Part shown: positions 1-64,000 of the stretch, one piece after another | Position numbering within the stretch: the stretch's first letter is position 1 | Layout of the letters: every line of letters starts with the position of its first letter | DNA from: Escherichia phage ECO71P1 | Strand: one strand, 5' to 3' | Sequence record: OP172789 | Length of the DNA: 64,000 nt | Translations under genes and position numbers: made by a program | Notes under the pieces: model-generated | Database searches by the model: none | What the model was told of the DNA's origin: nothing | The model's input: only the letters and a program-made list of their open reading frames with translations

Positions 1-110
1 TCGTCGAGTAGCTCTACCAGTGCCTTTGCATCGTCGAGTGTTAACACCACTGGCCGCGACCCATTAACGGCTTGTCGAAGCTTCCGCGCGGCAACGGCCA
101 ACTTAGTCAT
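1..110 (-). CDS. hypothetical protein, 5' part only (gene continues beyond the left edge of the window)
   Basis: ATG at 108-110 on minus strand with upstream AAGGG; open frame runs to window edge. Confidence 0.3.
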   Translation of the reverse strand, partial: MTKLAVAARKLRQAVNGSRPVVLTLDDAKALVELLD

Positions 111-121
111 CGGACCCTTGT

Positions 122-514
122 TCACGGCAACTCCTTATTCATTGGCGTAATGGAAAGCACCTTCACTTCAGTGATGTCACGGTTATATTCGCGCTTGATT
201 TGTAGAATCTGGGATTGGATGCGCGCGATAAAGTGCCACGTTATGCCTTCCTTAACGTTAATCCAGGCCGCAAGCTGCATCGAGTCAATGTCACTTCTCA
301 ATGTCATCGGTCTGTAAACAGCACTTGGTGCACCACTAGCACCGTAAGCCAGTTGCGCGTCATAAGCTGAATACTTGAATGACACCAGGAACATTCTTTC
401 TTCAAGTTGACTCTCGCTATTAGGATTCTTATCACAATTAGCCATATGCTGCACGAACTCTTCATGCGGAAGATGCATCACATCGTGGCAATACGGACAA
501 CGTTTCATTCTCAT
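122..514 (-). CDS. hypothetical early protein with Cys/His cluster (CPYCH...H..C), possible zinc-binding
   Basis: ORF track 130 aa; start overlaps stop of upstream gene (ATGA). Confidence 0.45.
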   Translation of the reverse strand: MRMKRCPYCHDVMHLPHEEFVQHMANCDKNPNSESQLEERMFLVSFKYSAYDAQLAYGASGAPSAVYRPMTLRSDIDSMQLAAWINVKEGITWHFIARIQSQILQIKREYNRDITEVKVLSITPMNKELP

Positions 515-747
515 TTTGCATACTCCATAGCATATTGCTGCAGCTTAAACGCAGCCTTTTGTAATTGTTTGTGGCGTTCAAATAACGTCTCACGCTTTTC
601 AGCATGGCAATCGGCGCGAAGCATTGTTATGGCAACGCTTGACATAGCATTCAATAAAAACTGAAAACGAGACACCATGCGCAGCTCATTGCGCTTGTTG
701 AAAGACAGCTTACCCAGCGCGGCATTCATAATTGCACCTCGACACAC
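511..747 (-). CDS. hypothetical protein
   Basis: 78 aa ORF in tight minus-strand array; 4-nt overlap with neighbour. Confidence 0.4.
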   Translation of the reverse strand: MCRGAIMNAALGKLSFNKRNELRMVSRFQFLLNAMSSVAITMLRADCHAEKRETLFERHKQLQKAAFKLQQYAMEYAK

Positions 748-1043
748 GATTCACTAGCCTTGAATCCCCAGCCTTCCAGACCGACTTCGCCGCAGCAGCG
801 CACCTTTGCCCAACCAGTCATGAGCCATTGGCGATACTTTTCGAAGTATGTTGGCTTTTCTGAATAACAATGAACAAGGCCGTCGTCATCAATGGCCACG
901 TAACGCGTCCAAGGCGCAACGGGTACAACTACGTCGGGGTGCGACTCTGGCCAAGGCTTGATGTGTACAGCTGTGTTCAAGTCTACGTTTAACACGCTGC
1001 CTAACCGCTCGTCTTGTTCCTGGTCAATGCCTAAGTAAATCAT
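726..1043 (-). CDS. hypothetical protein
   Basis: 105 aa ORF, co-oriented with neighbours. Confidence 0.4.
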   Translation of the reverse strand: MIYLGIDQEQDERLGSVLNVDLNTAVHIKPWPESHPDVVVPVAPWTRYVAIDDDGLVHCYSEKPTYFEKYRQWLMTGWAKVRCCGEVGLEGWGFKASESCVEVQL

Positions 1044-1127
1044 AATTCACCTCGCTTGTTAGTCTTGATGAACAGAGTATAAGTATTGATAAAAGAAAAG
1101 GCAAGCATTTAGCTCACCTTTTGATAT

Positions 1128-1460
1128 TCATTTTACATAGTGGAGTAGGTCAATCTCTATCTCGTGCCTTGTCCTTGTTATCTTTGTATCGCCCGTCCGG
1201 TGGGTGACTTGAGAGAAGAAAGAGTCTTTGTGAGCACATCTTTCAAACATCACGCTGGCAAATCTGCAGCCGCATATTGCATCAAGTTTTGCTCCGTTAG
1301 ACAAAAGGTTGAATGTCAATACAGTGTTATCCATCCTTGCATTTTGCTTGATGCAGGACTTTAAGAAGGCGTAAGAATCGGCAAATGATTTGTGCCTTTT
1401 ACAAATATCTTTAACCTTTTCACGTTCATACGCGGCGAGTATCTGATCACGGGTCATCAC
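1128..1460 (-). CDS. hypothetical protein
   Basis: 110 aa ORF. Confidence 0.45.
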   Translation of the reverse strand: MMTRDQILAAYEREKVKDICKRHKSFADSYAFLKSCIKQNARMDNTVLTFNLLSNGAKLDAICGCRFASVMFERCAHKDSFFSQVTHRTGDTKITRTRHEIEIDLLHYVK

Positions 1461-1696
1461 TGCACCTCTGTTATTCCGGTTATACGAACGATGACTGTGT
1501 CATCCAAATTAAACTGCTGCCGCGCAACGCGCTTGATGTCGTCCTTAAGGTCCGCAATCAACTCCCTTGTTAACACTGTACGCTCTGAGACGCCATATTG
1601 CACGTCAAAGGTATACTCGCCATAAAACACCGCGCCATTGGGAAGTTGCACGACATAGAATGCCATATACATGGCGTTGATATAATCTTCCATTAT
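1457..1696 (-). CDS. hypothetical protein (start trimmed to internal Met MEDYINAM)
   Basis: Longest ORF 1457-1807 overlaps next gene by 115 nt; internal ATG gives 4-nt ATGA overlap. Confidence 0.35.
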   Translation of the reverse strand: MMEDYINAMYMAFYVVQLPNGAVFYGEYTFDVQYGVSERTVLTRELIADLKDDIKRVARQQFNLDDTVIVRITGITEVQ

Positions 1697-2040
1697 ACAT
1701 TCTCCACGGGTCGACGAATGAGTTTGCGTAATCCTTCGGGCCAGACCTTCTTGATGACGGCCTTTGCTGGGCTGGATGAAAGCTTCTTCAGCTTCAATAG
1801 GACACAACCTTCATCATCGTTCGGTTGCACCTGGATAACGACTCGCGCTTGTCGGTCAATGACCATGACATCCCCAACGCGAATGTCTTTCACCAACACG
1901 CCCATCTCCTTCGTGCCGGATACGCCAATCACGTGGTCGCAACGGACTCGCGACGGTAGCAACGTGCCGCCTTCAGCCATCTCACGCACACGCTTCTTAA
2001 TCTCTGCGCCATACAGCGTTTCATCTTTAACATGAGCCAT
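1693..2040 (-). CDS. hypothetical protein (start trimmed to MAHVKDE)
   Basis: Internal ATG preceded by AAGG; avoids overlap with upstream gene. Confidence 0.4.
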   Translation of the reverse strand: MAHVKDETLYGAEIKKRVREMAEGGTLLPSRVRCDHVIGVSGTKEMGVLVKDIRVGDVMVIDRQARVVIQVQPNDDEGCVLLKLKKLSSSPAKAVIKKVWPEGLRKLIRRPVENV

Positions 2041-2521
2041 GTTCAAGTACCTTATAGAATTTAGTGGTGAATCGCTCGTCGCCATAGTAGCGATAATTTC
2101 CGCCACCTGTGTGATCAAACCTTACCCATTGAATTAAAGTCTGGTCAGCGTCATGCGACACGTGAATCACTCGGCCATTAACAGGAATTGCACCCTCTTC
2201 CGCGTCCTTGCTTATGATTGAGTCGCCGTTCTTTATGTCAAATATGTCAATTGGCTTAAGGCGCGGCTTGTTATCAGCATAAGTTTTAATAGGTAAGGCA
2301 ATGCAGCGAGAATTTGAATGATACACAGGTCTTGTTGCACCCTTGACGTTGCGCTTCAGCAATTCATCAATGGCATAGTCAACATCATCACTTTCAAACT
2401 CCTTCATGATGAAGTCTCTTACCCTTACACGAAGGTTGACATCTGCTTCTGCACGTCTCAATGCGTGTAAAATTTCTTTAGCTTCTTCTTTGTTTAACAT
2501 TAAAGGGCGATGAATGATCAT
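2027..2521 (-). CDS. hypothetical protein
   Basis: 164 aa ORF. Confidence 0.45.
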   Translation of the reverse strand: MIIHRPLMLNKEEAKEILHALRRAEADVNLRVRVRDFIMKEFESDDVDYAIDELLKRNVKGATRPVYHSNSRCIALPIKTYADNKPRLKPIDIFDIKNGDSIISKDAEEGAIPVNGRVIHVSHDADQTLIQWVRFDHTGGGNYRYYGDERFTTKFYKVLEHGSC

Positions 2522-2675
2522 AATTAACCTCTGATTTGTGACACAAAACGTTTATAATGTTCTTTGGCTAAGACGCGTGCACGCTCTTTCGTATGGCCAC
2601 TGGCTTCGAGTACGCGACGAAGCTGCTTGATTGCGTCCGCTTTACTAATCTTGTTATCGCTAAATTGATATTTAT

Positions 2676-2897
2676 TCATGCTTCACAAGCCGCCTTAATT
2701 TGACGTGGAGTAACGATGACCACTTCACCAACCAGTGACTTGTCGTCTTCTTTTACCGTGTCGATTCGAACGCGGTAATGATTGCGACCGCGCGAATCAG
2801 TAAGGTATTGATCCAGCTCAAGGATGGTGCCTGCGCGCATATTCTGTCCTGACATCCAACGGATGCGGTCCCCAGCCTTAAGAGTTTTCTTTCTCAT
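2676..2897 (-). CDS. hypothetical small protein (start trimmed to MRKKTLKAGD)
   Basis: Longest ORF would overlap the next gene extensively; internal start fits gene packing. Confidence 0.35.
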   Translation of the reverse strand: MRKKTLKAGDRIRWMSGQNMRAGTILELDQYLTDSRGRNHYRVRIDTVKEDDKSLVGEVVIVTPRQIKAACEA

Positions 2898-2904
2898 CTT
2901 CAAC

Positions 2905-3183
2905 TCACTTATAGTATTTAAACATAGCCGCGCAAAAGTCTTGCATGGCATTCTTAATCTGCTTCTTGAACAACGGGTCATGCATCGTTTCAACATTCGT
3001 CTTAATCCGAACGTGACCGATAACATCAAACGCAGTCGCTGGCATCGGCTCATAGATTTCATGATCGTTCAAGATTATATCTAGTTTTGACTCAGAAATC
3101 ACGGGATAATTCTTTCCAGCAGTAAACTGGTCATCAATCGATGACGTGCACTTGACAAAGAACACTTTGTATGTAGTAATCAT
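2905..3183 (-). CDS. hypothetical protein
   Basis: 92 aa ORF. Confidence 0.4.
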   Translation of the reverse strand: MITTYKVFFVKCTSSIDDQFTAGKNYPVISESKLDIILNDHEIYEPMPATAFDVIGHVRIKTNVETMHDPLFKKQIKNAMQDFCAAMFKYYK

Positions 3184-3389
3184 AGTGAGTCCTTCGGGCC
3201 GCAGTAGCGCCCGTCCAGGTAGCGGTCATATTGGATTAAGGCGAACGTTTTCAACGAAAGGTTACGGCGCTTAAACAGGTGACCCGTTGATGGATTCTGC
3301 TCGTGCGCCGTTGGATAAAGGCGTGACAGGTAGTGGATGAGGACTTGTAAAGCTCTACGTTGCTTTGTTATTCTCCCTTGTGTATTCAT
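3180..3389 (-). CDS. hypothetical protein
   Basis: 69 aa ORF, ATGA overlap with downstream gene. Confidence 0.3.
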   Translation of the reverse strand: MNTQGRITKQRRALQVLIHYLSRLYPTAHEQNPSTGHLFKRRNLSLKTFALIQYDRYLDGRYCGPKDSL

Positions 3390-3618
3390 GGCTGAATCTA
3401 CCCTCTGTCAATATCCGGTCGTGGATGACTATACCAGTGCAGCGCAGTCGGTTGGCATTGCTTCGCGCCTTTGCTGCTTGATGAGGATTGAACAAGCCAA
3501 ACAAACTAGCCTTAAAAGCAAACTGGTAATATTTGATTAAGGTACTAAGTGCTAACTCAATCCTGTCTAAATTAATCATAATATCACCTCGTCAGAAAAG
3601 CAAATATTTTGATGATAA

Positions 3619-4266
3619 TTATCCTGTGGCCTGCATATTGCGTACATACTTCTGCTCTAATGAATAGATGAAGTCGGCGACCGTCAATCCTTTGGTGTGC
3701 CACTCATACATTGTGTAGCCTGTATTCAGGAAATAGCCGCGCACCTTGTCCATTGCTTCAGATTCCTCCATGGAAGCCATCAGCGCGGCGACGTTATCAT
3801 AAGAAGGCACAAATCCCTTCTTGCGTAGCGCATTGCGCAAATCTTTAGTTCTGAATCCAATCTTGCACAGGTCATCACGGCCCGTTGAAGATGCAACCTT
3901 CGGCAGCGCAAGGAACTCTTTGAGGAACATTGAGATGTTCAAGTCGCCTGCGTCATCAAGCTTCTGGAGTCGGTTGCGACCGCGACCCTTGAATTCACTC
4001 GCACGAGGGTGAGCACCAAAGCAGTGCGCCCCTTCCAGTTTTGGGTCGATGATCATCAAATCTTTGCCTACGCGCAATTCAACATAGTAAAGGTATGTCT
4101 CATCGATAAGCTTCGTGCGCTTACAGTTGATGGAGTCCTTATCGTAACCAAAACCACGCAACACGGTTGAAATCATCCGGTTCATTTCTTCTCCGTGAAC
4201 GTCACTCTCTTTGTTCAGTTCACCAAGATGTTGAAAGAATTTAGCGATGTTGATTGCTTTATTCAT
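3619..4266 (-). CDS. hypothetical protein
   Basis: 215 aa ORF immediately upstream of the helicase gene, stop/start adjacent. Confidence 0.5.
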   Translation of the reverse strand: MNKAINIAKFFQHLGELNKESDVHGEEMNRMISTVLRGFGYDKDSINCKRTKLIDETYLYYVELRVGKDLMIIDPKLEGAHCFGAHPRASEFKGRGRNRLQKLDDAGDLNISMFLKEFLALPKVASSTGRDDLCKIGFRTKDLRNALRKKGFVPSYDNVAALMASMEESEAMDKVRGYFLNTGYTMYEWHTKGLTVADFIYSLEQKYVRNMQATG

Positions 4267-5936
4267 CAGAATTCATCCTTATCTCTTCCTAAAGAACGTT
4301 TGCGTTCAATAACCTTCTTCAAGAATTCAATATCTTCAGGGTCAGATTCATCGCGGATAAGATACGCCAAAATAGTCATCAGGTCAGAAATGTATTCCCC
4401 TGCTTCATTCTTAATCAGCGGCGTAAAGTAACCACGCTGGTTGCGATAGGTTGCAGGCTCAAATCCAAGCTTCGACATGTGCGGCGCAAGGGTACGTGAG
4501 AAAGGCGACTTGCCGCACTTAGCTCTGAAGCCCATAGCGATTGCACCACTAGTGATGTGCCAGCGTCCGCTGTGATGTCGGTCATAAGGCGCGGTGATGA
4601 CGACTTCAACAAGGTCGTTGTCGACCATCTCGTCACGGATAACGCCGCGAGCACGTTCCATTTCGTTCTTGCTGAACTCAGTAAGCATGCGAGACGTTTC
4701 ACCAACAAAAGCGTTGTAACCTGCTTCGCCGTGCTTCTCCATCCACGCAGCACACTCAGCCATCAACTGCCAAACATCTTCTTTCAAAGTGGAAAGGTCA
4801 GCTTGGAAGTCTTTCGACCAGTTCGGTTGCCCGTCCTTGTCTGCGAGTTGGCCAACAAAGATAGGATACACACGACGGTTGCCCGTATCGTCACGCTGCA
4901 TGCCTGCGTATTCGTTGCCGTCCATGATAGCAATCCACTGGCGCGGTTTAACCTGCGTATCTTCAAATTTGAAGTCCAGGTCATCTTCCGTCTTAGTCAG
5001 GAATGCTTTCATGTTTTCGATGTCGGCCTTTTTAAAGCCTGTCATCTCGCCAACGTTCGCGATAATTGAGCGACCCGTAATAGCTCGCAAGAACGGGTTG
5101 AAGTTCTGCGCGGCCAAGTTCAACGGAATCGGTGTTGCGTGGCGGTCGTTCATAATAGCTTCGCAAAGCAGCTTACTGAAATAACTCTTCCCTGCGTTCT
5201 GGCCGCCGATGAGCGCAATGGAGATTGGCGCTTGACAGCCAGGGTTGGTCAGGCGGTTATAGAGCGATAGCCAAAAATACACACCGATTTGTCGGTTTAA
5301 CTCTGTATCGAACGGTCGGAATAGCTCGATAAGGTATTTCTCAATGCGCGCAGTACCGTCCCATTCAGGCAGCTTCTTGTAGAAGAAGTCCATCAGGTCG
5401 TCGCGCTGATAACGCATGGCCCATTCCTTATAGGATTGAGCGACCTGACGTGAGTTTGGGTTGGACAGGCCTGCTGCGTCGACAGCGGCAACTATCTCTG
5501 TGACTTCCAACGTCCGGTCGGTGAATGTTTCTCCGCGATGGTCGACTAAGCGTCCACGAAAAGTATCTTTGTGAGGGAATGGGACAATGCCGCTTCCCTT
5601 ATCAAACAACGCGTCGAAAACCGCATAACGGTTCATGTCACTCGTCCGGTCCGCCTGAAGAACAAAATCATCTTTCGTCGGTTTGTAGTGAGGGAACTTG
5701 ATTACCTGAAGTGAGGCGAGCAAACGTGCTCTTTCAACCAAGTCTTCTTCACCGTAGCACTCCATGCGCTCTGCATCTTTCTCAACAGCCTTATGCTGGA
5801 GGCTGATTTTAGCTCTGGTGCCTTGCTGCTCTGCCGCTTGCATCTCTTCTGAAACACCAGCGTCTTGAATTTCGTCAAAGGTTGCACCAAATTCATCACC
5901 TGTATCCTCTGGAAGATTGTCATGTTCAATTGACAT
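4266..5936 (-). CDS. P-loop NTPase, putative replicative helicase (D5 / primase-C-terminal-like)
   Basis: Walker A-like IALIGGQNAGKSYFSKLL in 556 aa protein; strong AGGAGG RBS before ATG at 5936. Confidence 0.55.
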   Translation of the reverse strand: MSIEHDNLPEDTGDEFGATFDEIQDAGVSEEMQAAEQQGTRAKISLQHKAVEKDAERMECYGEEDLVERARLLASLQVIKFPHYKPTKDDFVLQADRTSDMNRYAVFDALFDKGSGIVPFPHKDTFRGRLVDHRGETFTDRTLEVTEIVAAVDAAGLSNPNSRQVAQSYKEWAMRYQRDDLMDFFYKKLPEWDGTARIEKYLIELFRPFDTELNRQIGVYFWLSLYNRLTNPGCQAPISIALIGGQNAGKSYFSKLLCEAIMNDRHATPIPLNLAAQNFNPFLRAITGRSIIANVGEMTGFKKADIENMKAFLTKTEDDLDFKFEDTQVKPRQWIAIMDGNEYAGMQRDDTGNRRVYPIFVGQLADKDGQPNWSKDFQADLSTLKEDVWQLMAECAAWMEKHGEAGYNAFVGETSRMLTEFSKNEMERARGVIRDEMVDNDLVEVVITAPYDRHHSGRWHITSGAIAMGFRAKCGKSPFSRTLAPHMSKLGFEPATYRNQRGYFTPLIKNEAGEYISDLMTILAYLIRDESDPEDIEFLKKVIERKRSLGRDKDEF

Positions 5937-7245: not shown

Positions 7246-8328
7246 CTATTTTATGCCACCTGCGCGACGATTTATCATATCAAGTTGATTCTCAATATAA
7301 GGCATTACTACTGCTTCGACAAAAGCGGTCCATCCTTTCTTGCCTTCCCCTTTCCGGTGACAGTCGTGAGCGCAACCGAAAACGAATTCATGTTCAGCGC
7401 CAGGGATTGGGCCGCGAAAATAAGCGCCGTATGGGTCGCCGTTGGTGTGCTCTTCACCCCAAGGACAGATGATGCGGCATTTACCTGACATGTTTTCAAC
7501 CACATCGCCATCGGACCCTTCGCCCATCTTATTGCGCGCAAGGATTTGCTGGGCTATCTTATACCAAACAGCGTCATATTTGTATTCGTCAACGTCGATT
7601 TGAATTTCACGCTTTTGCGGCATAACGACGTGGAAACCGAAGGCTTGGCAAATCTCTTCGATTGTGTAGCGCAAAGAATAGTCTGCATGAACAAGTCGGC
7701 AGCGGAACGGGTCGCCGTTCTCATCGACATATTTATAGGGGCCGTCGTGAGTCACACGCTTATTGTTGATGCACCCAGGAACACGACCCACGCGTGTCAC
7801 ATCTTTAATCGTATTGTCGCCGCCCTTCTTGAGTACCATGTTTACGAAAGACCCAAGGAATGCTTTGAACTGAATAAGATGGTCAATCGGTTCTTTAAAG
7901 AAGTACCACAGCTGATGGTTGTTCGGTGAAGTCTCAACAATGACGGTGGGCTTCAGGCGCTCGAAAAAGAATTCCAAATCTAAATCGCCCTTTGACCCTT
8001 TACCGTGTCCGATGTCGTCGACCATCATCGCCATGCCATGACCGAAAGCCGATTCCGTGCGCCAGTATCGCATCTCGCCTGTCTTTGGGTTGGGAGACTT
8101 ACGCATTGAACTTATGCAGGCGTAACCGTTCTGATGTTGCATCAGCGGCTTGCCAAGCTTCCAAGGCTTAGGCCAGAAGCTGCTGTTAATCTTTTTGCCG
8201 CGCTCGTCGGTCTGCACCGTTGCTTCAGGCGCAAACACTGTCATGACGCGTTCATCTTCTGGAATGCCTCTTTGGAGTTCCGTCAAAAACTCTTCGATTA
8301 TTTTTGCTTCTTCTCTTAAACTAGCCAT
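7246..8328 (-). CDS. putative primase-like replication protein (AEP/prim-pol-like DxD motif plus C-terminal Cys/His cluster)
   Basis: MMVDDIGHG acidic motif, C-terminal CPWGEEH...GCAHDCH; GAAGGAAAG RBS; sits beside helicase gene. Confidence 0.4.
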   Translation of the reverse strand: MASLREEAKIIEEFLTELQRGIPEDERVMTVFAPEATVQTDERGKKINSSFWPKPWKLGKPLMQHQNGYACISSMRKSPNPKTGEMRYWRTESAFGHGMAMMVDDIGHGKGSKGDLDLEFFFERLKPTVIVETSPNNHQLWYFFKEPIDHLIQFKAFLGSFVNMVLKKGGDNTIKDVTRVGRVPGCINNKRVTHDGPYKYVDENGDPFRCRLVHADYSLRYTIEEICQAFGFHVVMPQKREIQIDVDEYKYDAVWYKIAQQILARNKMGEGSDGDVVENMSGKCRIICPWGEEHTNGDPYGAYFRGPIPGAEHEFVFGCAHDCHRKGEGKKGWTAFVEAVVMPYIENQLDMINRRAGGIK

Positions 8329-8488
8329 CTTTCTTTCCTTCGGTGATCAATACCTGCAGTATAATATTGAGTGATACAAAGTCAACAATATTTACCATTT
8401 AGTTCACAATTTCGATTTACTTTGCTTTATACTATATCTGCAATTATACTATCAGAAAATATTTCCGCACTAACAAAGGTCGCCTGAA
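8329..8488. promoter_or_regulatory. divergent intergenic region with three TGC-N-TATA(A/C)TAT boxes, candidate host-RNAP promoters
   Basis: Switch point between minus-strand and plus-strand gene blocks; repeated -10-like hexamers. Confidence 0.3.
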
Positions 8489-15888: not shown

Positions 15889-16431
15889 GTGTTATTTCTT
15901 CCTTATGACTTCGAAACAACCGGATTAACCGTGCACCCGAAAGCGCCGCTTGGGATGCAGCCGCGCCCTATTGAATTTGCAGGCCTGTTGACGGACGGCA
16001 AAGAGATTCTTGAAACGTTCGAGTTCATAATCAACCCTGAAATCGTGATTGAAGAAATCATCACAAAGATTACCGGATTAACAAATGAAGACCTTGAGTG
16101 CAATCCGCCATTCATCAATTTTGTTCCGCAGCTAAAAGAAATCTTCAAGAAGACTGATGCCACTATCGCGCACAACCATGCGTTCGATAAGAACATTCTT
16201 GATTATGCACTACAGCGCGAAGGACTTACACTTGATGATGTTAATTTCCCAGAAATAAACATCTGTACAGTTGAGCAAACCTTGCCTATTTTTGGCCGAA
16301 GAGTTAAGCTTCAAGAGCTGTATGAATTATATTTCGGAAAATATGAACAGAAGCACCGTGCATTAGACGACGTAATATTACTGCACAAAGTCTGCCAACA
16401 AATTGGCGTATATGACATCTGGAGTAAATAA
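15889..16431 (+). CDS. DnaQ-like 3'-5' proofreading exonuclease
   Basis: Exo motifs DFETTG, HNHAFD, HRALDD; GTG start after AGGAGG. Confidence 0.8.
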   Translation: MLFLPYDFETTGLTVHPKAPLGMQPRPIEFAGLLTDGKEILETFEFIINPEIVIEEIITKITGLTNEDLECNPPFINFVPQLKEIFKKTDATIAHNHAFDKNILDYALQREGLTLDDVNFPEINICTVEQTLPIFGRRVKLQELYELYFGKYEQKHRALDDVILLHKVCQQIGVYDIWSK

Positions 16432-42526: not shown

Positions 42527-43102
42527 TTACACCGGAACGTCACCCAAATCATTATTAACAGCTCTTGCCACTGCAGGAGTATCAATTGAAATTGCGTTTC
42601 TGTGAAGTATTACTAAATCAAAAGAAGGGAATGATTCGAATTGTGACATGTCATCATAAAACTTTTCATTATTATTCATGTCGATTCGATATACTGATGC
42701 CTGATGCTTTTTGAACCAATCTCTCAGATTAGCTTTATGAGTTATGAATCTTGCCAAATAAGTCAATACGTCATTAGCAGTAGGCTTTTCTGGGTCGCCA
42801 GGGACTTCTGGAAATAAGCCACTAATTTGAAAACGTGTTGCGTATATCTGATCTTCAATGTCTTTAAATTTGCCGTTTACAAATTGAGACTCATCATTGA
42901 CAAATTCACTTTTCCTCATGGACCATCCAAAAGGAACTGAGAATAAAAGGTTAAACCAAATTTGATCACCAGTCGGAATGCCCTGTTGAGTCGGTTGATA
43001 CTTTTTCTGGACCGGAACAGCAGAAAGGTCTGCACGACTATACGCCGCCAGACCTTCTTCAATTCGCGTTGCCAGCATGTCAATCAGGTCGACATCTGTC
43101 AT
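42527..43102 (-). CDS. hypothetical head-tail connector protein
   Basis: About 191 aa; GAGGTG RBS before internal ATG. Confidence 0.35.
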   Translation of the reverse strand: MTDVDLIDMLATRIEEGLAAYSRADLSAVPVQKKYQPTQQGIPTGDQIWFNLLFSVPFGWSMRKSEFVNDESQFVNGKFKDIEDQIYATRFQISGLFPEVPGDPEKPTANDVLTYLARFITHKANLRDWFKKHQASVYRIDMNNNEKFYDDMSQFESFPSFDLVILHRNAISIDTPAVARAVNNDLGDVPV

Positions 43103-46316: not shown

Positions 46317-47735
46317 TTATTCCCCTTTCAACCAAGCTTCAAATGCTTCGTCAGTTGCTGCAGAATCCGCAGCGGCCTTTTGTTTTGCGACTACACGCTG
46401 TTTTTGACCGTGTTCAACGCCGCGCAGATAATTATCCACCACGTCAAACTCAGCACCATCAACGCACTTCAAGCCTAACTTTTTAGCGCCATATTTCGCT
46501 ACGGACTTGGAGTCCATAGTTGCATGATCAAAGGCACCAACAACTTTAGACAGGCGCTGGTAGAGGCTATTCTTACGAGCAGAATCAGCGTAGAAAGCAG
46601 CAACTGCTGAATCAGATGCCATTGAGTGTTCCCCTTTTGCTGGACCTGGCGACGCTTTCGCCGCTTTTGTCGGTTTGTCATCTTTTTCGACCGAAGCCCC
46701 CTTTACGTTGCTGTTTTGCAGGCCGCTAACCACATCTTCAGCTTTGTCGCAAGGTGATACATCTTCAGCCTTGACTTCAACTTCTTCGTCTTTGACTTCG
46801 GCTTCAACTTCTTCTTCATCACCTACCGCGCCACCTTTAAGTTTTGCAATAAGTGCTTCGATTTGGCTGATCAGTTGCGGAAGCTCGCCGCCAGCGTGAG
46901 ATTCAGTTTCAACTTCAAACTTCTCTTCACCTTCTGGAGTCTCTTCAGCTTCTGCTTTAACTTCTGGATCAACCATCACTTCTTCACGTTCTTCGGTTGA
47001 ATCCTTCTCTTCTGCTTTCACTTCAACTTCGTCCTGATGAGCAGCTTCGGTGCTCTCTTCATTCAGAAATTGTTCGAGCGCAGGGATCAGTGATTTCAGC
47101 TGTTCAACAGCATTATCACGCGCTTTACCTTTTAACGGTTTTGGCATGTCTAAATCCTCGTTGGATGGTGTTACAGTCGTCAAACAAAGATGGTCAAAGC
47201 AACGACCATCCAGCACCCGTGCACCTGGTACTCGACCAACGTCCACGAGAGCAATGTGGTTGCCGCGAAGAGTTGTCTGTACCACTTCATACGGCTGCCC
47301 GTCAAACTCTCCAGACTGTATGATGAATTCACAGTCATAGCCCAAAGACAAGTCAACCTTTCCAGAATCGATGGCCTTCTTCAGACGACGGCTAAAAACT
47401 TTAAGGTCGCCGCGCATCCATGGCTTGTCATAATAAACATTGCCAGTTAGAACGCCATCAACGCCATACTCTTCGGGTGCTGTGTTATCCTCATCACCTT
47501 CGAATCCAGAAAGCATTTCGTGATTGTCGATGAAAGGGATATTTTTGAATGAATCTATCGCTTCGGGGTCTTTCACCGCTGACTCTGGGCGATAAACTTT
47601 TACGATGCGATTCGGATCACCATCAAGTCCAACCTGACCTGCAGAATAATCAAAAATGCCAAATGACGAAATGGGACAACCCACAATCGTCAAGAATCCA
47701 TTTTTGTCAATTTCGCGTGCCGTTTGCATTCGCAT
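46317..47735 (-). CDS. prohead scaffold/protease-like protein with long acidic Glu-rich linker
   Basis: 472 aa, central EEVEAEVKDEEVEVKAED-type acidic region; GAGGGTGG RBS. Confidence 0.45.
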   Translation of the reverse strand: MRMQTAREIDKNGFLTIVGCPISSFGIFDYSAGQVGLDGDPNRIVKVYRPESAVKDPEAIDSFKNIPFIDNHEMLSGFEGDEDNTAPEEYGVDGVLTGNVYYDKPWMRGDLKVFSRRLKKAIDSGKVDLSLGYDCEFIIQSGEFDGQPYEVVQTTLRGNHIALVDVGRVPGARVLDGRCFDHLCLTTVTPSNEDLDMPKPLKGKARDNAVEQLKSLIPALEQFLNEESTEAAHQDEVEVKAEEKDSTEEREEVMVDPEVKAEAEETPEGEEKFEVETESHAGGELPQLISQIEALIAKLKGGAVGDEEEVEAEVKDEEVEVKAEDVSPCDKAEDVVSGLQNSNVKGASVEKDDKPTKAAKASPGPAKGEHSMASDSAVAAFYADSARKNSLYQRLSKVVGAFDHATMDSKSVAKYGAKKLGLKCVDGAEFDVVDNYLRGVEHGQKQRVVAKQKAAADSAATDEAFEAWLKGE

Positions 47736-47845
47736 CCACCCTCAAATAAGTATTGTGTATTATATCTAATGAAAAAAACTTAGGCAAACAATAATTATGG
47801 TTTGAATATGTATAACAACCGATATAGCCGCGCCTTAATTAGTGT

Positions 47846-48107
47846 GATACGGATGATACGGATAAAATGAGGCGTATTTTTATCCGTATCGGTGTATAAG
47901 CCGCGCTATCACTGGTGTGCTACGGATGATACGGATGATACGGATACTTTTCATATATAAGAGTTTATAAAAAAATAAAATTAAATTAGATATATAATTT
48001 TAAATTAATTTATTTGAATTCCTATAAAGTATCGCGGCAACGCGTATCATCCGTATCATCCGTAAGATTCTTTTGAAAACAACTACTTACTTGATACGGA
48101 TGATACG
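47846..48107. repeat. iteron cluster: direct and inverted copies of TACGGATGATACG flanking an AT-rich core
   Basis: 47846-47863, 47921-47947 (triple), inverted copy 48043-48064, 48093-48107; AT-rich 47948-48030. Confidence 0.7.
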
Positions 48108-48151
48108 TCATTATACGCGTAAAATCCTGCGGCAATCCATTGCCAGGCGAT

Positions 48152-48289
48152 TCAGTGAATATTAAAAAGCACTCCAGCAACTAAAACGCCAATCAGCATC
48201 GAGTCGTAAACAGCCCATTTCCAAGAAAGCAAAGAGTTGCAATTAATATTTCGCACTTTAACGTAACGTGACTGAATAATCTTTTGCAT
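48152..48289 (-). CDS. small hydrophobic protein (45 aa)
   Basis: Hand translation MQKIIQSRYVKVRNINCNSLLSWKWAVYDSMLIGVLVAGVLFNIH; AAAGAGGAAG RBS. Confidence 0.3.
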   Translation of the reverse strand: MQKIIQSRYVKVRNINCNSLLSWKWAVYDSMLIGVLVAGVLFNIH

Positions 48290-58848: not shown

Positions 58849-59244
58849 ATGATCATCGATATTGAAAAGGCACTCAAGCGAGAATTGACGCCAGGTGCGA
58901 CTCCTGGCGAAGAAGCCTACTACCGACCGAAAGCGCAGCGCACCAATGAGATTCCGGTCGTTAAGCGGACAGTGAATAAGAACGGTCAGCGGTCGCGACT
59001 GCGCTCTATCCGGTCCGGTGAAAGGATTAAAACGATTCGCCAGTGTCTACAACGACTCGAAATCATGGGTTGTCGCGCTTATATCGACCCTGATGGAAAG
59101 GTCATGGTGAGAATTGGCAATAGTACACAACTACAAGACGGATTGCCTTGCGGAGAATCCAGACCCATAGCAAAGACCGACCGTGTGGCTACTGGCCGCG
59201 AGGTTGAGGAAAGTTGGTTGGGTGCTTTCTTATTAAAATATTGA
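58849..59244 (+). CDS. hypothetical basic protein (start trimmed to MIIDIEKAL)
   Basis: Longest ORF has implausible Cys-rich N-terminal extension. Confidence 0.35.
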   Translation: MIIDIEKALKRELTPGATPGEEAYYRPKAQRTNEIPVVKRTVNKNGQRSRLRSIRSGERIKTIRQCLQRLEIMGCRAYIDPDGKVMVRIGNSTQLQDGLPCGESRPIAKTDRVATGREVEESWLGAFLLKY

Positions 59245-59251
59245 GGTTAAT

Positions 59252-59446
59252 ATGAATAAAAATGAATCAGTAGCATTCTTACAATGGCTGGAAGGTGTGG
59301 TGGAGTATCGCGCGGCAAGCGACCGTTTCATCTTTCAAGGCAAAAGCTTCAAGCGCAAAGGACAAGCCCAGAAAGCAGCCCGTAAATACTGGAAGGAAGT
59401 TTATTCAGAGTTCTTTCAGCACATCGGCTCAGTTGGTATCGATTGA
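59252..59446 (+). CDS. hypothetical protein
   Basis: 64 aa; GAGG RBS. Confidence 0.4.
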   Translation: MNKNESVAFLQWLEGVVEYRAASDRFIFQGKSFKRKGQAQKAARKYWKEVYSEFFQHIGSVGID

Positions 59447-59483
59447 TGAATCCAATCGTTACAATTAACAAACCGATTTGAAT

Positions 59484-59505
59484 GCCGCGCTATGCGGCTT
59501 TATTA
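59484..59505 (+). terminator. putative terminator
   Basis: GCCGCGCTATGCGGC hairpin followed by TTTATTAT. Confidence 0.45.
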
Positions 59506-59543
59506 TAGTTATTGTTAATCACCCAAATATTGAAGGTAATGAT

Positions 59544-59957
59544 ATGCCAAATAAAAATGATTCTATTCACAATACATATACTAAAGGCAGCGGAATGGCC
59601 TTTGGTGGCAGCATCAAAATTGACGCTCCTGGGATTCACATCCATAATGTTGATGCAAGTTCTGATGTAAGCAGTCGTGATTTGTCCTTGGTCCTCAAGA
59701 ATCAACTCGCTTTGGAATCGCGGTTGGATAGCATCGAGAAATCTCTCGAAAGTCTGCGCGACCAGCTTTATGGGCCTTGCCCCGTTGCGGATGAGTCTAA
59801 GACTGTTAATGTCAACTACGGTCTGATTGACAATATGCTTGGTGCTACATCACGCTCTGCCGTTAAGGCGTATAACATCGAGAATCTGATTGGGCAGATT
59901 TCTGATGGATTTGGCACATCTTGTGTTGCAGGTCGTGAAAGCGATTGTGGTGAGTAG
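59544..59957 (+). CDS. hypothetical protein (start trimmed to MPNKNDS)
   Basis: GAAGG RBS before internal ATG. Confidence 0.4.
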   Translation: MPNKNDSIHNTYTKGSGMAFGGSIKIDAPGIHIHNVDASSDVSSRDLSLVLKNQLALESRLDSIEKSLESLRDQLYGPCPVADESKTVNVNYGLIDNMLGATSRSAVKAYNIENLIGQISDGFGTSCVAGRESDCGE

Positions 59958-63165: not shown

Positions 63166-63177
63166 AGTGCAAATTGG

Positions 63178-63650
63178 CTAGTGGCGGGAGAATTGCTCAC
63201 CCTCTTTGGCAGCCTCTCCAAAATCCTTGTAGAAATCGTCCATGGAACGGCCCATTTTACTATTGCCGTTTTCATCAATCATCGTGATGCCGTAGATGAT
63301 ATTCAGTTCACGAATGGCATTAAGCTTGGCTGAAGCCGCGACTTCTGGATCACGCACAAGCTTCACTAAATTGTGGATGGAACTCTTTACGCTCCACAAT
63401 TCCTTCAATGGCATCTCTTCCATACGCTTCTTGTAGCGCATCTTGTAGTACGGATTGCGTTGCGTGCACAGGATTCGCTGGCCAGTGTAGTTATCGGTCG
63501 CAACCTCCATGCCAAATACTAGTGCAAAAGCTGCGCGCATGTCATGGCCCTGAATAACAAGGTCAATGAACTCATCGAATAATGCCTGATTATGCTCTGC
63601 AAATCGTGGGTCTTCAAAGTCTTCAGGCATTGCTACATAATCTTGACTCA
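63178..63650 (-). CDS. hypothetical protein (start set to MSQDYVAMPEDF; start codon lies inside a repeat copy)
   Basis: ORF track extends via TTG through the repeat array; ATG start favoured. Confidence 0.4.
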
Positions 63651-64000
63651 TAGTGCAAATCCCATAGTGCAAATTAATAGTGTGAATTATACAATGATTG
63701 AACATTATATTCAAGTGCAGATTGATGTTCAAATTGGCTGTAAACGTACACAAATCATAGTGCTAAATGAATATCGGACCGTGGTGCGTGGTGTACTGTT
63801 TGATACGTATAAAAGAAATCCATCCCTTTCGCCGCTTGTTATGCAAATCAATGACTTAGCCGCTGCTGGCTGGTTGAAGCGTATCATGACGTATCATCCG
63901 TATTGCCGCAAGTCTTTGTTTTTACTTATATCTTACGGATAATACGTATAAATATAAGTTTAGTATAAGTATGAGGATGTAGAAAAAATTAATTTAAATT

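What the first reader, a model, noticed from the sequence alone, without database searches (positions are those of the whole stretch)
47846..48107. Inverted-repeat iteron locus (TACGGATGATACG units) around an 80-bp AT-rich core inside the structural module
Direct copies of GATACGGATGATACGGAT and a triple TACGGATGATACGGATGATACGGATAC lie left of an AT-rich core (47948-48030). A 22-bp inverted copy (48043-48064) and another direct copy (48093-48107) lie to the right, with flanking GCCGCG/CGCGGC dyads. Iterons plus an AT-rich unwinding element in dyad symmetry is the classic architecture of a replication origin; a packaging site or strong operator is also possible. It sits between two minus-strand structural genes and next to an unannotated 45 aa membrane ORF.
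Basis: seen in the sequence. Interest (0 to 1): 0.6.

Follow-up and report, generated by a model that had tools for sequence, protein, structure and literature searches.

The report
Origin-like iteron element, twin of pac
The repeats are real and mark one of two sister DNA elements kept by a whole family of phages (including the therapy-relevant Pseudomonas PB1-like phages); it is built like a replication origin, and its sister copy beside the small-terminase gene is where the DNA packaged into the phage head begins.

Summary
Observation confirmed. The window is a Wifcevirus (E. coli myophage). The 416-bp gap 47736-48151 carries about 10 copies of a 9-bp unit (GATACGGAT) in inverted clusters. 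They flank an 84-bp, 89% A+T core, together with GCCGC(left)/GCGGC(right) dyads.

The locus has a sister copy immediately upstream of terS; its inner half lies at window 63831-64000. In Wifcevirus, Myosmarvirus and Pbunavirus the published physical left end or pac start falls inside the core of that sister copy.

Four genera keep both loci with the same layout. Each genus has its own 9-mer, identical at both loci, while GCCGC is universal. In all three complete genomes examined, the two cores are the two most AT-rich 80-nt segments.

The phage encodes a helicase whose best structural match is the SaPI1 Rep initiator, with a variable winged-helix-like C-terminal domain, and a conserved RepB-type primase. 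SaPI origins have this layout: short iterons in opposite orientation on both sides of a central AT-rich region.

Best reading (about 0.5): an origin-like element served by these proteins, whose twin doubles as the packaging start. Rivals are an uncut terminase-binding pac paralogue and an operator for the head operon. Nothing has been tested experimentally. I rate it a new variant of a known kind.

The parts
47736..48151 (.). Whole non-coding gap that holds the element. It interrupts an otherwise tightly packed, co-oriented late operon: portal, MuF-like, head fibre and 45-aa ORF on one side; protease, decoration protein and major capsid protein on the other.
   Evidence: ORF map; WFH annotation. 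The gap is 94.6-100% identical in 28 Wifcevirus records, against 92-99.5% for the surrounding 4 kb.
47759..47787 (-). Sigma-70-like promoter TTGCCT-17-TATAAT, about 25 nt upstream of the protease start codon and downstream of the iteron element.
   Evidence: 10 of 12 matches. A TATAAT box lies a few tens of nt upstream of the protease ATG in PA1, SMP and LMA2 as well, read from the sequences printed. The stretch is invariant in the 5-genome alignment.
47827..47831 (+). Outer left GCCGC pentanucleotide (AGCCGCGCC).
   Evidence: It is mutated to GTCGC in WFH.
47846..47863 (+). Two tandem 9-bp iterons, GATACGGAT GATACGGAT.
47855..47890 (.). 13-bp-stem hairpin-type inverted repeat (GATACGGATAAAA / TTTTATCCGTATC). 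Each arm contains one iteron; the right arm is an inverted single unit.
   Evidence: I10; the hairpin is also formed in the ssDNA fold.
47900..47904 (+). Inner left GCCGC pentanucleotide.
   Evidence: It is mutated to GTCGC in Bas101.
47921..47946 (+). Three tandem 9-bp iterons abutting the core.
47947..48030 (.). AT-rich core (84 bp, 89% A+T), the putative DNA-unwinding element. It is the most AT-rich 80-nt segment of the window.
   Evidence: It is invariant among 5 Wifcevirus genomes up to about 48026.
48034..48038 (+). Inner right GCGGC (an inverted GCCGC), part of GCGGCAACGCG.
   Evidence: It is retained as GGCGGC in Bas101, Eco4M-7 and WFC.
48043..48064 (-). About 2.5 inverted iterons, a perfect 22-nt inverted repeat of 47921-47942.
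   Evidence: I1. Bas101 lacks exactly one 9-bp unit here.
48093..48107 (+). Outer right iteron pair (1.5 units, direct orientation).
   Evidence: It carries a G-to-T change in Eco4M-7 and WFC.
48129..48133 (+). Outer right GCGGC, inside GGCAAT-cc-ATTGCC.
63831..64000 (.). Inner arm of the sister (terS-proximal) element, the half that lies inside the terminal repeat. It holds three GCCGC (63831, 63859, 63905), iterons at 63880-63903 and 63932-63946, and the start of its AT-rich core (63947-64000). The window stops about 10 nt short of the position that is the physical left end in WFH and Mansfield.
63175..63651 (-). terS (small terminase, 158 aa), immediately downstream of the sister element.
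   Evidence: The sequence matches PDB 7UXE (E217 small terminase) at E = 9e-33. It is 100% identical to the WFH protein and is annotated as terS in Mansfield.
4266..5936 (-). Candidate trans-acting initiator: a 556-aa VapE-like, D5-family SF3 helicase with a winged-helix-like C-terminal domain.
   Evidence: Pfam PF05272. PDB 7PDS (SaPI1 Rep1) matches by sequence at E = 4e-11 and by fold at E = 8e-17. The C-terminal domain is the least conserved structured part.
7246..8328 (-). RepB-type primase (360 aa), a candidate reader of the invariant GCCGC motif. That assignment is inference only.
   Evidence: Pfam PF16793 at E = 1.6e-36. It is 64-70% identical across genera.

Best explanation
The locus is one of two paralogous, dyad-symmetric, origin-like elements that this phage family keeps.

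Each element has three parts:
- an easily melted 80-120 bp AT-rich core;
- lineage-specific 9-bp iterons in inverted clusters on both sides of the core;
- invariant GCCGC pentanucleotides that point in opposite directions on the two sides.

Proposed mechanism (inferred, not shown):
- The phage's SaPI-Rep1-like SF3 helicase recognises the repeats through its variable winged-helix C-terminal domain.
- It loads on both sides of the core and melts it.
- The conserved RepB-type primase then primes on the exposed strands, possibly at the GCCGC sites.

The sister copy sits immediately upstream of terS, and directly downstream of the helicase gene in Pbunavirus and Myosmarvirus. It additionally serves as the packaging start: the left end of virion DNA lies in its core.

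The copy under study sits upstream of the head protease operon. It is a second origin-like site and is not detectably cut.

Shown here: the anatomy, the paralogy, the cross-genus conservation and co-variation, the mapping of the physical end to the sister copy, and the identity of the encoded proteins.
Inferred: who binds what, and that replication starts here.
For: 1. Repeat statistics and anatomy.
2. A paralogue exists at the terminal-repeat boundary. In WFH the 13-mer occurs only at 16051-16310 and around 67455-67715 (also at 72-127 in the repeat copy), and the two loci share 46 nt at 95.7% identity.
3. The same two-locus layout occurs with a different 9-mer in each genus, identical at both loci: Wifcevirus GATACGGAT, Kylevirus PA1 TAACCGTTA, Myosmarvirus ACTTTTCG, Pbunavirus GGTAATT-type. 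A metagenomic relative has ATCCGCAAGA. An unbiased k-mer test recovers these as the words shared by both loci.
4. GCCGC sits only left of the core and GCGGC only right, in every element counted (WFH, PA1 and LMA2) or read from the printed sequences (SMP, JG024, MTx and L020). No site has the wrong orientation.
5. The two cores are the first and second most AT-rich 80-nt windows in WFH, PA1 and LMA2.
6. The encoded helicase is VapE-like. It hits SaPI1 Rep1 (7PDS) by sequence at E = 4e-11 and by fold at E = 8e-17 over about 480 columns. Its C-terminal helix-strand-helix-helix-strand-strand module is the least conserved structured part, at 24% against 59% for the ATPase core. SaPI Rep proteins likewise recognise their iterons through a winged helix in the C-terminal domain (PMC9371898).
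7. SaPI origins are described as penta- or hexanucleotide iterons immediately downstream of rep, half on each side of a central AT-rich region and pointing in opposite directions, with one hexamer loaded on each side (PMC9371898).
8. In LMA2, JG024 and MTx the sister element lies directly downstream of this helicase gene.
9. The RepB-type primase is 64-70% identical across genera, while the helicase is 45-48% and TerS 39-40%. This parallels an invariant GCCGC beside variable 9-mers.
10. There is strong purifying selection. The stretch 47700-48026 is nearly invariant among genomes whose flanking genes differ by 4-8%, and one genome has lost exactly one 9-bp unit.
Against: - No replication data exist for any member of the family.
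- The copy under study is not next to the helicase gene. In Wifcevirus neither copy is, because about 7.7 kb of small genes intervene.
- The sister copy is demonstrably the packaging start, so the shared repeats could be terminase signals and not replication signals.
- GCCGC spacing is irregular (about 23-124 bp). Single GCCGC sites are lost in individual genomes. GCCGC is not rare genome-wide, at about 2-2.6 per kb per orientation, so the arms are enriched only 5-8 fold.
- There are two repeat classes, where SaPI origins have one.
- Cumulative GC skew shows no inflection at the locus, although skew here simply follows gene orientation.
- The assignment of the 9-mers to the helicase and of GCCGC to the primase rests only on parallel conservation levels.
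Confidence: 0.5

Rival explanations
1. An uncut pac paralogue. The 9-mers and/or GCCGC are recognition sites of the small terminase, as in SPP1 pacL/pacR or the P1 pac hexamers. The terS-proximal copy is the real pac. The head-operon copy binds the TerS decamer without being cleaved. Its role could be to feed back on head-gene expression, or to pair with pac in the way proposed for the T4 gene 16 and gene 19 sites.
For: - The physical left end or pac start maps in the core of the sister copy in three genera. WFH has an exact terminal repeat of 3,701 bp. Mansfield has a PhageTerm repeat of 3,673 bp. MTx has a PhageTerm repeat of 3,566 bp. Ab27 position 1 equals JG024 59,376.
- The sister copy always abuts terS.
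- TerS divergence (39-50%) is compatible with lineage-specific 9-mers.
- Repeats flanking a cleavage region are a known pac layout (my own knowledge of SPP1 and P1).
- The E217 TerS C-terminal helix has been proposed to stack rings (PMC9611059).
Against: - E217 TerS showed no appreciable DNA binding in vitro (PMC9611059).
- Only one fixed end is reported in Pbunavirus, so binding without cutting must be assumed.
- A second high-affinity terminase site inside a genome with precise ends would be risky unless it has a function.
- This reading does not explain why both cores are the two most meltable segments of each genome.
- It does not explain why the layout copies that of the origin of the helicase's closest solved relative.
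Confidence: 0.2
2. A transcription control region. The repeats are operators or enhancer-like sites for a phage regulator that times two late transcription units, terS and the protease-decoration-capsid operon. Both units are driven by a nearby sigma-70 promoter.
For: - Both copies lie upstream of a late gene and in the same orientation relative to it.
- Near-consensus promoters follow each element: TTGCCT-17-TATAAT at 47787..47759, and TTGAAC/TTGAAT-17-TATAAT at WFH 280-326 before terS. TATAAT boxes also precede the protease gene in PA1, SMP and LMA2.
- The LMA2 record annotates a predicted sigma-70 promoter inside the core.
- Near-consensus sigma-70 promoters in front of late genes imply some timing control.
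- Pbunavirus 14-1 has phage-specific promoters that need extra factors (PMC10914365).
Against: - A 260-300 bp dyad element with about 10 iterons and an ~85-bp, 89% A+T spacer is far larger than known operators.
- No candidate regulator was identified.
- This reading does not explain the packaging cut in the sister core or the SaPI-origin layout.
- The 14-1 start-site tables could not be read.
Confidence: 0.15
3. No function of its own: a duplicated piece of the pac/origin region kept similar by gene conversion, or a cruciform-prone recombination hot spot.
For: There is a 46-nt near-identical block between the two copies in Wifcevirus and 79 nt at 82% in LMA2. Cruciform potential is strong.
Against: The position and layout are retained in four genera that share only 44-58% protease identity. 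The element is more conserved than the flanking coding DNA. The iterons co-vary at both loci, which requires selection through a common binding factor.
Confidence: 0.05

Closest known systems
SaPI (staphylococcal pathogenicity island) Rep/ori system: a self-loading D5-family helicase with a winged-helix C-terminal domain and its iteron origin
   Same: Short repeats sit on both sides of a central AT-rich region and point in opposite directions. The encoded helicase is the closest solved relative of the one here, by sequence and by fold, and has a variable winged-helix-like C-terminal domain. In Pbunavirus and Myosmarvirus the sister element lies immediately downstream of the helicase gene, as in SaPIs.
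   Different: There are two copies per genome, and this one is 16 kb away in the head module. There are two repeat classes (an invariant pentanucleotide and lineage-specific 9-mers). The repeats are widely and irregularly spaced. One copy coincides with the packaging start. No binding or replication assay exists.
pac sites with flanking repeats (SPP1 pacL-pacC-pacR; P1 pac with 4+3 hexamers)
   Same: Repeated short motifs lie on both sides of the region that is cut, next to the terminase small-subunit gene. This holds for the sister copy. The description of the SPP1 and P1 sites is from my own knowledge.
   Different: The locus under study is not next to terS, and no end has been reported there. 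E217 TerS did not bind DNA in vitro.
Two-locus initiator-binding systems: P4 ori plus crr (alpha primase-helicase), and SPP1 oriL plus oriR (G38P)
   Same: The same repeats occur at two distant loci of one phage genome, and one locus lies outside the replication module. In P4 the binding protein is a primase-helicase that I recall as belonging to the same broad superfamily (own knowledge, not tested here).
   Different: There is no sequence relationship. Here both copies have a full dyad layout with an AT-rich core. Whether both are required is unknown.
RSF1010 oriV (RepC iterons, an AT-rich region, and the inverted ssiA/ssiB sites primed by RepB' primase)
   Same: The phage encodes a RepB-family primase. 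The element combines iterons, an AT-rich region and a motif present in opposite orientation on the two strands. The RSF1010 description is from my own knowledge.
   Different: GCCGC is only 5 nt long. Hairpins around it are inconsistent between genera. PDB RepB' matched only marginally by sequence (E = 0.39-0.76). No RepC-like initiator was found.
T4 gene 16 / gene 19 homologous pac-like sites (terminase synapsis model of L. Black)
   Same: Two homologous sites a few to many kb apart, proposed to be bound by small-terminase rings.
   Different: This is recalled from memory only; the one paper I checked did not discuss it. The T4 sites are 24-bp sequences inside genes and are not dyad elements with AT-rich cores.

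Membership tests
SaPI-type Rep/ori (self-loading SF3 helicase origin) | The genome encodes a Rep-like D5/VapE-family helicase with a C-terminal winged-helix DNA-binding domain | tested here: met
   Pfam PF05272. 7PDS matches by sequence at E = 4e-11. The AF2 model has pLDDT 86.7, with helix-strand-helix-helix-strand-strand at residues 436-504. 7PDS is the top fold match at E = 8e-17.
SaPI-type Rep/ori (self-loading SF3 helicase origin) | At least two short iterons on each side of a central AT-rich region, pointing in opposite directions | tested here: met
   GCCGC twice on the left and GCGGC twice on the right of the 84-bp, 89% A+T core. The 9-mer clusters next to the core (47921-47946 and 48043-48064) are inverted relative to each other.
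SaPI-type Rep/ori (self-loading SF3 helicase origin) | The origin lies immediately downstream of the rep gene | tested here: not met
   This locus is about 42 kb from the helicase gene in the window. The sister copy meets the criterion in Pbunavirus and Myosmarvirus but not in Wifcevirus.
SaPI-type Rep/ori (self-loading SF3 helicase origin) | Rep binds the iterons specifically and melts the AT-rich region; the element supports replication | not testable with these tools
   This needs EMSA or footprinting, a plasmid origin assay, or marker-frequency sequencing.
Phage pac site / terminal-repeat boundary | Virion DNA ends, or the packaging series starts, at this site | tested here: not met
   Judged from public records and papers only; no reads were re-analysed here. 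Records opened at experimentally inferred ends start at the sister copy. Pbunavirus studies report one fixed end, at JG024 59,376 = Ab27 position 1. A minor cut at this locus cannot be excluded.
Phage pac site / terminal-repeat boundary | Adjacent to or inside the small terminase gene | tested here: not met
   terS is at 63175-63651, about 15 kb away. The sister copy meets this feature.
Phage pac site / terminal-repeat boundary | Bound specifically by the small terminase | not testable with these tools
   The only published hint is negative: E217 TerS showed no appreciable DNA binding in vitro.
Classical iteron theta origins (plasmid Rep, lambda O) | [quoted passage not shown] | tested here: not met
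   The units are 9 bp with 9-bp phasing, in inverted clusters on both sides of the core. No Rep/O-type initiator appeared among the nine window proteins screened with Pfam; the rest of the window was not screened.
RSF1010-type oriV with ssi sites | RepB'-family primase plus two inverted single-strand initiation hairpins | tested here: inconclusive
   The primase family is present. The GCCGC dyads are inverted. Hairpins around them are inconsistent across genera (read).
Known structured RNA | Match to an Rfam family at its gathering score | tested here: not met
   Only sub-threshold matches to hairpin-shaped miRNA and sRNA models, caused by the inverted repeat.

The most novel reading that the evidence does not exclude
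In this phage family the replication origin and the packaging start are the same physical element. Terminase would cut the melted AT-rich core of a helicase-loaded origin next to terS, coupling origin firing to the creation of the left end and, in Wifcevirus and Myosmarvirus, to duplication of the 3.6-3.7 kb terminal repeat. The second, head-operon origin (this locus) fires but is protected from cutting.
Probability: 0.2. Interest if true: 0.8.

Novelty: new variant of a known kind. Interest (0 to 1): 0.6.

Why it matters
Pbunavirus (PB1-like) phages are among the Pseudomonas phages most used for therapy. Wifcevirus phages are being developed against E. coli O157.

I found no description of a replication origin for either group in the library searched. 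Reports on their genome ends have been contradictory.

This analysis gives a concrete, conserved pair of cis elements. One coincides exactly with every published end or pac coordinate. It also names the likely trans factors: a SaPI-Rep-like helicase, a RepB-type primase and TerS.

That makes origin mapping, pac definition and rational genome engineering directly testable. Engineering questions include where a genome can be opened, what must be kept in synthetic rebooting, and which fragments might confer origin-based interference.

If origin and pac are really one element, it would be an unusual coupling of replication initiation and packaging.

Tried and rejected
- Pfam on TerS candidates and on the 45-aa ORF found nothing. 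PHROGs only showed that the three terS-position ORFs are one family of unknown function. The PDB sequence search settled terS.
- The E217 terminase paper (PMC10026623) is not held.
- The supplementary start-site tables for Pbunavirus 14-1 are not held. Whether a transcription start lies in the core could therefore not be checked.
- Composition and GC-skew profiles show no feature at the locus beyond AT richness, because skew follows gene orientation.
- The Rfam search found nothing real.
- I looked for T4 pac-synapsis statements in PMC4872099 and found none. That comparison rests on memory.
- DnaA-box resemblance (TTATCCGTA against TTATCCACA, 7 of 9) was considered and dropped. The 9-mer changes completely between genera that infect related hosts.
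- A promoter for a T7-type phage RNA polymerase was considered, because of the TATAGG box after the inner GCCGC. It was dropped because no phage RNA polymerase is annotated in WFH or LMA2, and Essoh et al. report none in Ab27.
- Xylella phage MATE2 and Burkholderia phage BCSR129 did not show an obvious element upstream of their protease genes. The feature may be diverged or absent there; this was not pursued.
- I did not obtain the head-operon copy of the metagenomic relative L020, because the locus ended too early.

Full report
WHAT THE WINDOW IS. The 4-kb region around the finding is 92-99.5% identical to 28 Wifcevirus records (E. coli and Shigella myophages such as WFH, WFC, ECML-117, FEC19, Mansfield and Bas98-101). 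The window runs antiparallel to the WFH reference, NC_048194. In that record the finding lies in the gap between gp024 (a 45-aa ORF) and gp025 (head maturation protease). All neighbouring genes are co-oriented late structural genes: portal, MuF-like, head fibre and the 45-aa ORF on one side of the gap; protease, decoration protein and major capsid protein on the other.

THE OBSERVATION.
- The repeat unit is 9 bp (GATACGGAT). There are two tandem units at 47846-47863, one inverted unit at 47878-47890, and three units at 47921-47946.
- The core follows at 47947-48030 (84 bp, 89% A+T).
- To its right are about 2.5 inverted units at 48043-48064, a perfect 22-nt inverted repeat of the left inner cluster, and about 1.5 direct units at 48093-48107.
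- GCCGC lies at 47827 and 47900. Its complement GCGGC lies at 48034 and 48129.
- The 13-mer TACGGATGATACG occurs 7 times exactly (8 with one mismatch) against 0.06 expected.
- The core is the most AT-rich 80-nt segment of the whole window.
- As single-stranded DNA the element forms a ~30-bp stem closing the core (z = -6.4 against shuffles).
- No Rfam family matches it.

A SISTER COPY AT THE GENOME END. The motif occurs in one other place in the window, at 63890-63946, at the very end. In the complete WFH genome the 13-mer is found only at the focal locus (16051-16310) and around 67455-67715. The terminal repeat of WFH is exactly 3,701 bp (1-3701 = 67583-71283), in line with the 'about 3.7 kb' published for it (PMC6563267).

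The repeat boundary, which is the physical left end, falls inside the AT-rich core of the second element. It lies about 42 nt past a GCCGC and about 45 nt past a tandem iteron pair. Inverted iterons and GCGGC lie on the other side. The two loci share a 46-nt block at 95.7% identity: iterons, then CGCGT(T/C)GCCGC, then ATACTTTATA.

Phage Mansfield was opened independently at a PhageTerm-predicted 3,673-bp repeat (PMC6753283). Its terS has the same coordinates as in WFH, WFC and Ro157lw to within 1 nt. The gene directly downstream of this element is terS. It matches the solved E217 small terminase (7UXE) at E = 9e-33. In the window it is 63175-63651 on the minus strand.

CONSERVATION WITHIN THE GENUS. 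The 416-bp gap is 94.6-100% identical in all 28 records, whereas the surrounding genes drop to 92%. In a five-genome alignment the stretch from the protease start to the right edge of the core is almost invariant. The few changes are instructive:
- one GCCGC changed to GTCGC in WFH, and a different one in Bas101;
- one G-to-T change in the outer iteron;
- loss of exactly one 9-bp unit in Bas101.

CONSERVATION ACROSS GENERA, WITH CO-VARIATION. The same large gap upstream of the protease gene exists in Pantoea phage PA1 (Kylevirus), Serratia phage SMP (Myosmarvirus) and Pseudomonas phage LMA2 (Pbunavirus). Each has an AT-rich centre flanked by inverted clusters of its own 9-bp repeat:
- TAACCGTTA in PA1;
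- ACTTTTCG-type in SMP;
- GGTAATT-type in LMA2.

In PA1 and LMA2 the same lineage-specific repeat recurs at exactly one other locus, immediately upstream of the terS orthologue (PA1 42612-42854, LMA2 58950-59320). In Myosmarvirus the terS-proximal element of phage MTx carries the repeat seen in the SMP head-operon copy. A metagenomic relative, L020, shows yet another variant (ATCCGCAAGA) in the same layout upstream of its terS. An unbiased search for words present at least twice in both loci returns just these iterons; most of their genome-wide occurrences lie in the two loci.

One motif is universal, in contrast. GCCGC occurs 2-4 times left of every core and GCGGC 2-4 times right of it. (SMP is an exception, with none on the left and 4 on the right.) No site has the opposite orientation, either in the elements counted or in those read from the printed sequences. 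In WFH, PA1 and LMA2 the two cores are the first and second most AT-rich 80-nt windows of the genome.

THE SISTER COPY IS THE PACKAGING START IN THREE GENERA.
- Wifcevirus: shown above.
- Myosmarvirus: the PhageTerm repeat boundary of MTx (3,566 bp) lies in the core, between three GCCGC with iterons on one side and four GCGGC on the other.
- Pbunavirus: Essoh et al. placed nucleotide 1 of Ab27 at a fixed read end and found no terminal repeat (PMC4482731). Ipoutcha et al. found 36 of 161 long reads of JG024 starting at 59,376, together with a matching pac fragment (PMC10913387). Ab27 position 1 is exactly JG024 59,376. That position lies in the core, between GCCGC at 59250 and 59300 and GCGGC at 59487-59605.

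Both studies report a single such site. The head-operon copy is therefore not detectably cut.

WHO COULD ACT ON THE ELEMENT. The window encodes a 556-aa VapE-like helicase (4266-5936, minus strand) and a RepB-family primase (7246-8328, minus strand).
- The helicase's only significant PDB sequence match is 7PDS (E = 4e-11). That entry is SaPI1 Rep1 bound to DNA.
- An AlphaFold model (pLDDT 86.7) has 7PDS as its top fold match (E = 8e-17, about 480 aligned columns). Phage NrS-1 helicase and poxvirus D5/E5 follow.
- Residues 436-504 form a helix-strand-helix-helix-strand-strand module, typical of a winged helix. It is the least conserved structured part of the protein: 24% mean identity against 59% for the ATPase core.

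According to Qiao et al. (PMC9371898), SaPI Rep proteins recognise penta- or hexanucleotide iterons through a C-terminal winged helix. The iterons lie immediately downstream of rep, half on each side of a central AT-rich region. At least two on each side point in opposite directions, and one hexamer is thought to load on each side. That is the layout seen here. In LMA2, JG024 and MTx the terS-proximal element does lie immediately downstream of this helicase gene. In Wifcevirus about 7.7 kb of small genes separates them.

Across genera the primase is 64-70% identical, the helicase 45-48% and TerS 39-40%. This parallels an invariant GCCGC beside variable 9-mers. It is only a correlation.

INTERPRETATION. 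I commit to the reading that the focal locus is an origin-like element of the SaPI Rep type and one of a conserved pair, whose twin doubles as the packaging start (confidence about 0.5).

Shown: the anatomy, the paralogy, selection, co-variation, the coincidence of the sister core with every published end, and the nature of the encoded proteins.

Inferred: that the helicase binds the repeats and melts the core, that the primase uses GCCGC, and that replication starts here.

The main rival (0.2) is that the shared repeats are terminase signals and that this copy is a non-cleaved TerS landing site, with a regulatory or pairing role. E217 TerS did not bind DNA in vitro. This rival also leaves the origin-like design unexplained. 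Even so, the firm link of the twin to packaging keeps it alive.

A transcription-control role (0.15) is suggested by near-consensus sigma-70 promoters just downstream of both copies. It is not exclusive of the others. A functionless duplicate (0.05) is contradicted by the conservation.

COMPARISON WITH KNOWN SYSTEMS. The element works like a SaPI origin but fails one membership criterion, its position next to rep, and cannot be tested on the biochemical ones. It resembles SPP1 and P1 pac sites only through its twin. The two-locus arrangement recalls P4 ori/crr and SPP1 oriL/oriR (my own knowledge). I found no paper describing these elements, or any origin, for Wifcevirus or Pbunavirus. The Banzai paper infers 'a bidirectional component' from GC skew only.

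VERDICT. This is a real, strongly selected, family-wide cis element. The packaging alternative applies to the sister copy. Novelty: a new variant of a known kind. Interest: 0.6.

Noticed in passing
window 63831-64000: The window ends inside the AT-rich core of the terS-proximal sister element, about 10 nt before the position that is the physical left end (start of the terminal repeat) in WFH and Mansfield. The outer half of that element is therefore not in the window.
   Followed up: yes
window 63175-63651 (-): This 158-aa ORF is the small terminase (PDB 7UXE, E = 9e-33). It is labelled 'hypothetical protein' in most Wifcevirus records and lies far from the large terminase gene (about 9 kb away in WFH).
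   Followed up: yes
L002 (WFH) 3560-3860; terminal repeat ends at 3701: The right boundary of the 3.7-kb terminal repeat has no iterons, no GCCGC dyad and no AT-rich core. What defines the second end is unexplained.
   Followed up: partly
window 48043-48064 and L021 (Bas101): Bas101 lacks exactly one 9-bp iteron unit. WFH and Bas101 have each lost a different GCCGC (changed to GTCGC). Copy number is therefore somewhat flexible.
   Followed up: yes
window 48152-48289 (-): A 45-aa hydrophobic ORF sits directly upstream of the gap. A small ORF of similar size occupies the same position in LMA2 (gp20), SMP and MTx-like phages. The Eco4M-7 record notes a transmembrane domain. Its function is unknown.
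   Followed up: no
window 47947-47975 and the equivalent sites in PA1, LMA2 and MTx: A TATA(T/A)AGG-like box lies 10-20 nt inside the inner left GCCGC (in WFH/gene orientation) in several genera: TTTATAGGAAT, TATATAGGAGT, TATATAGGTAT, GCTATAAGGAAAT. In LMA2 it is followed by CTGGG, the core of the phage-specific promoter motif reported for 14-1. It might be a start site within the core.
   Followed up: partly
L020 12700-13250 (ENA metagenome contig, 67.8 kb): An uncultivated relative has the same element upstream of terS, with a further iteron variant (ATCCGCAAGA). The helicase search returned 189 homologues; among the 120 listed, many lie on 67-72 kb contigs, so the family is large.
   Followed up: partly
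L009 (Xylella phage MATE2) and L011 (Burkholderia phage BCSR129), upstream of the protease gene: These more distant relatives also have a long gap there, but no obvious iteron/GCCGC dyad element was seen.
   Followed up: no
L016 (JG024) 59205-59786: The annotated ORF F358_gp77 overlaps the whole terS-proximal element and is probably not a gene. The MTx ORF gp103 overlaps the left arm of its element in the same way.
   Followed up: no
window 8329-8488: A divergent gap lies between the RepB-type primase (minus strand) and the 108-aa ORF plus Dda-like helicase (plus strand). It contains one of the more AT-rich 80-nt windows (start 8384, 77.5% A+T). It is another conceivable origin site; no repeats were examined.
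   Followed up: no
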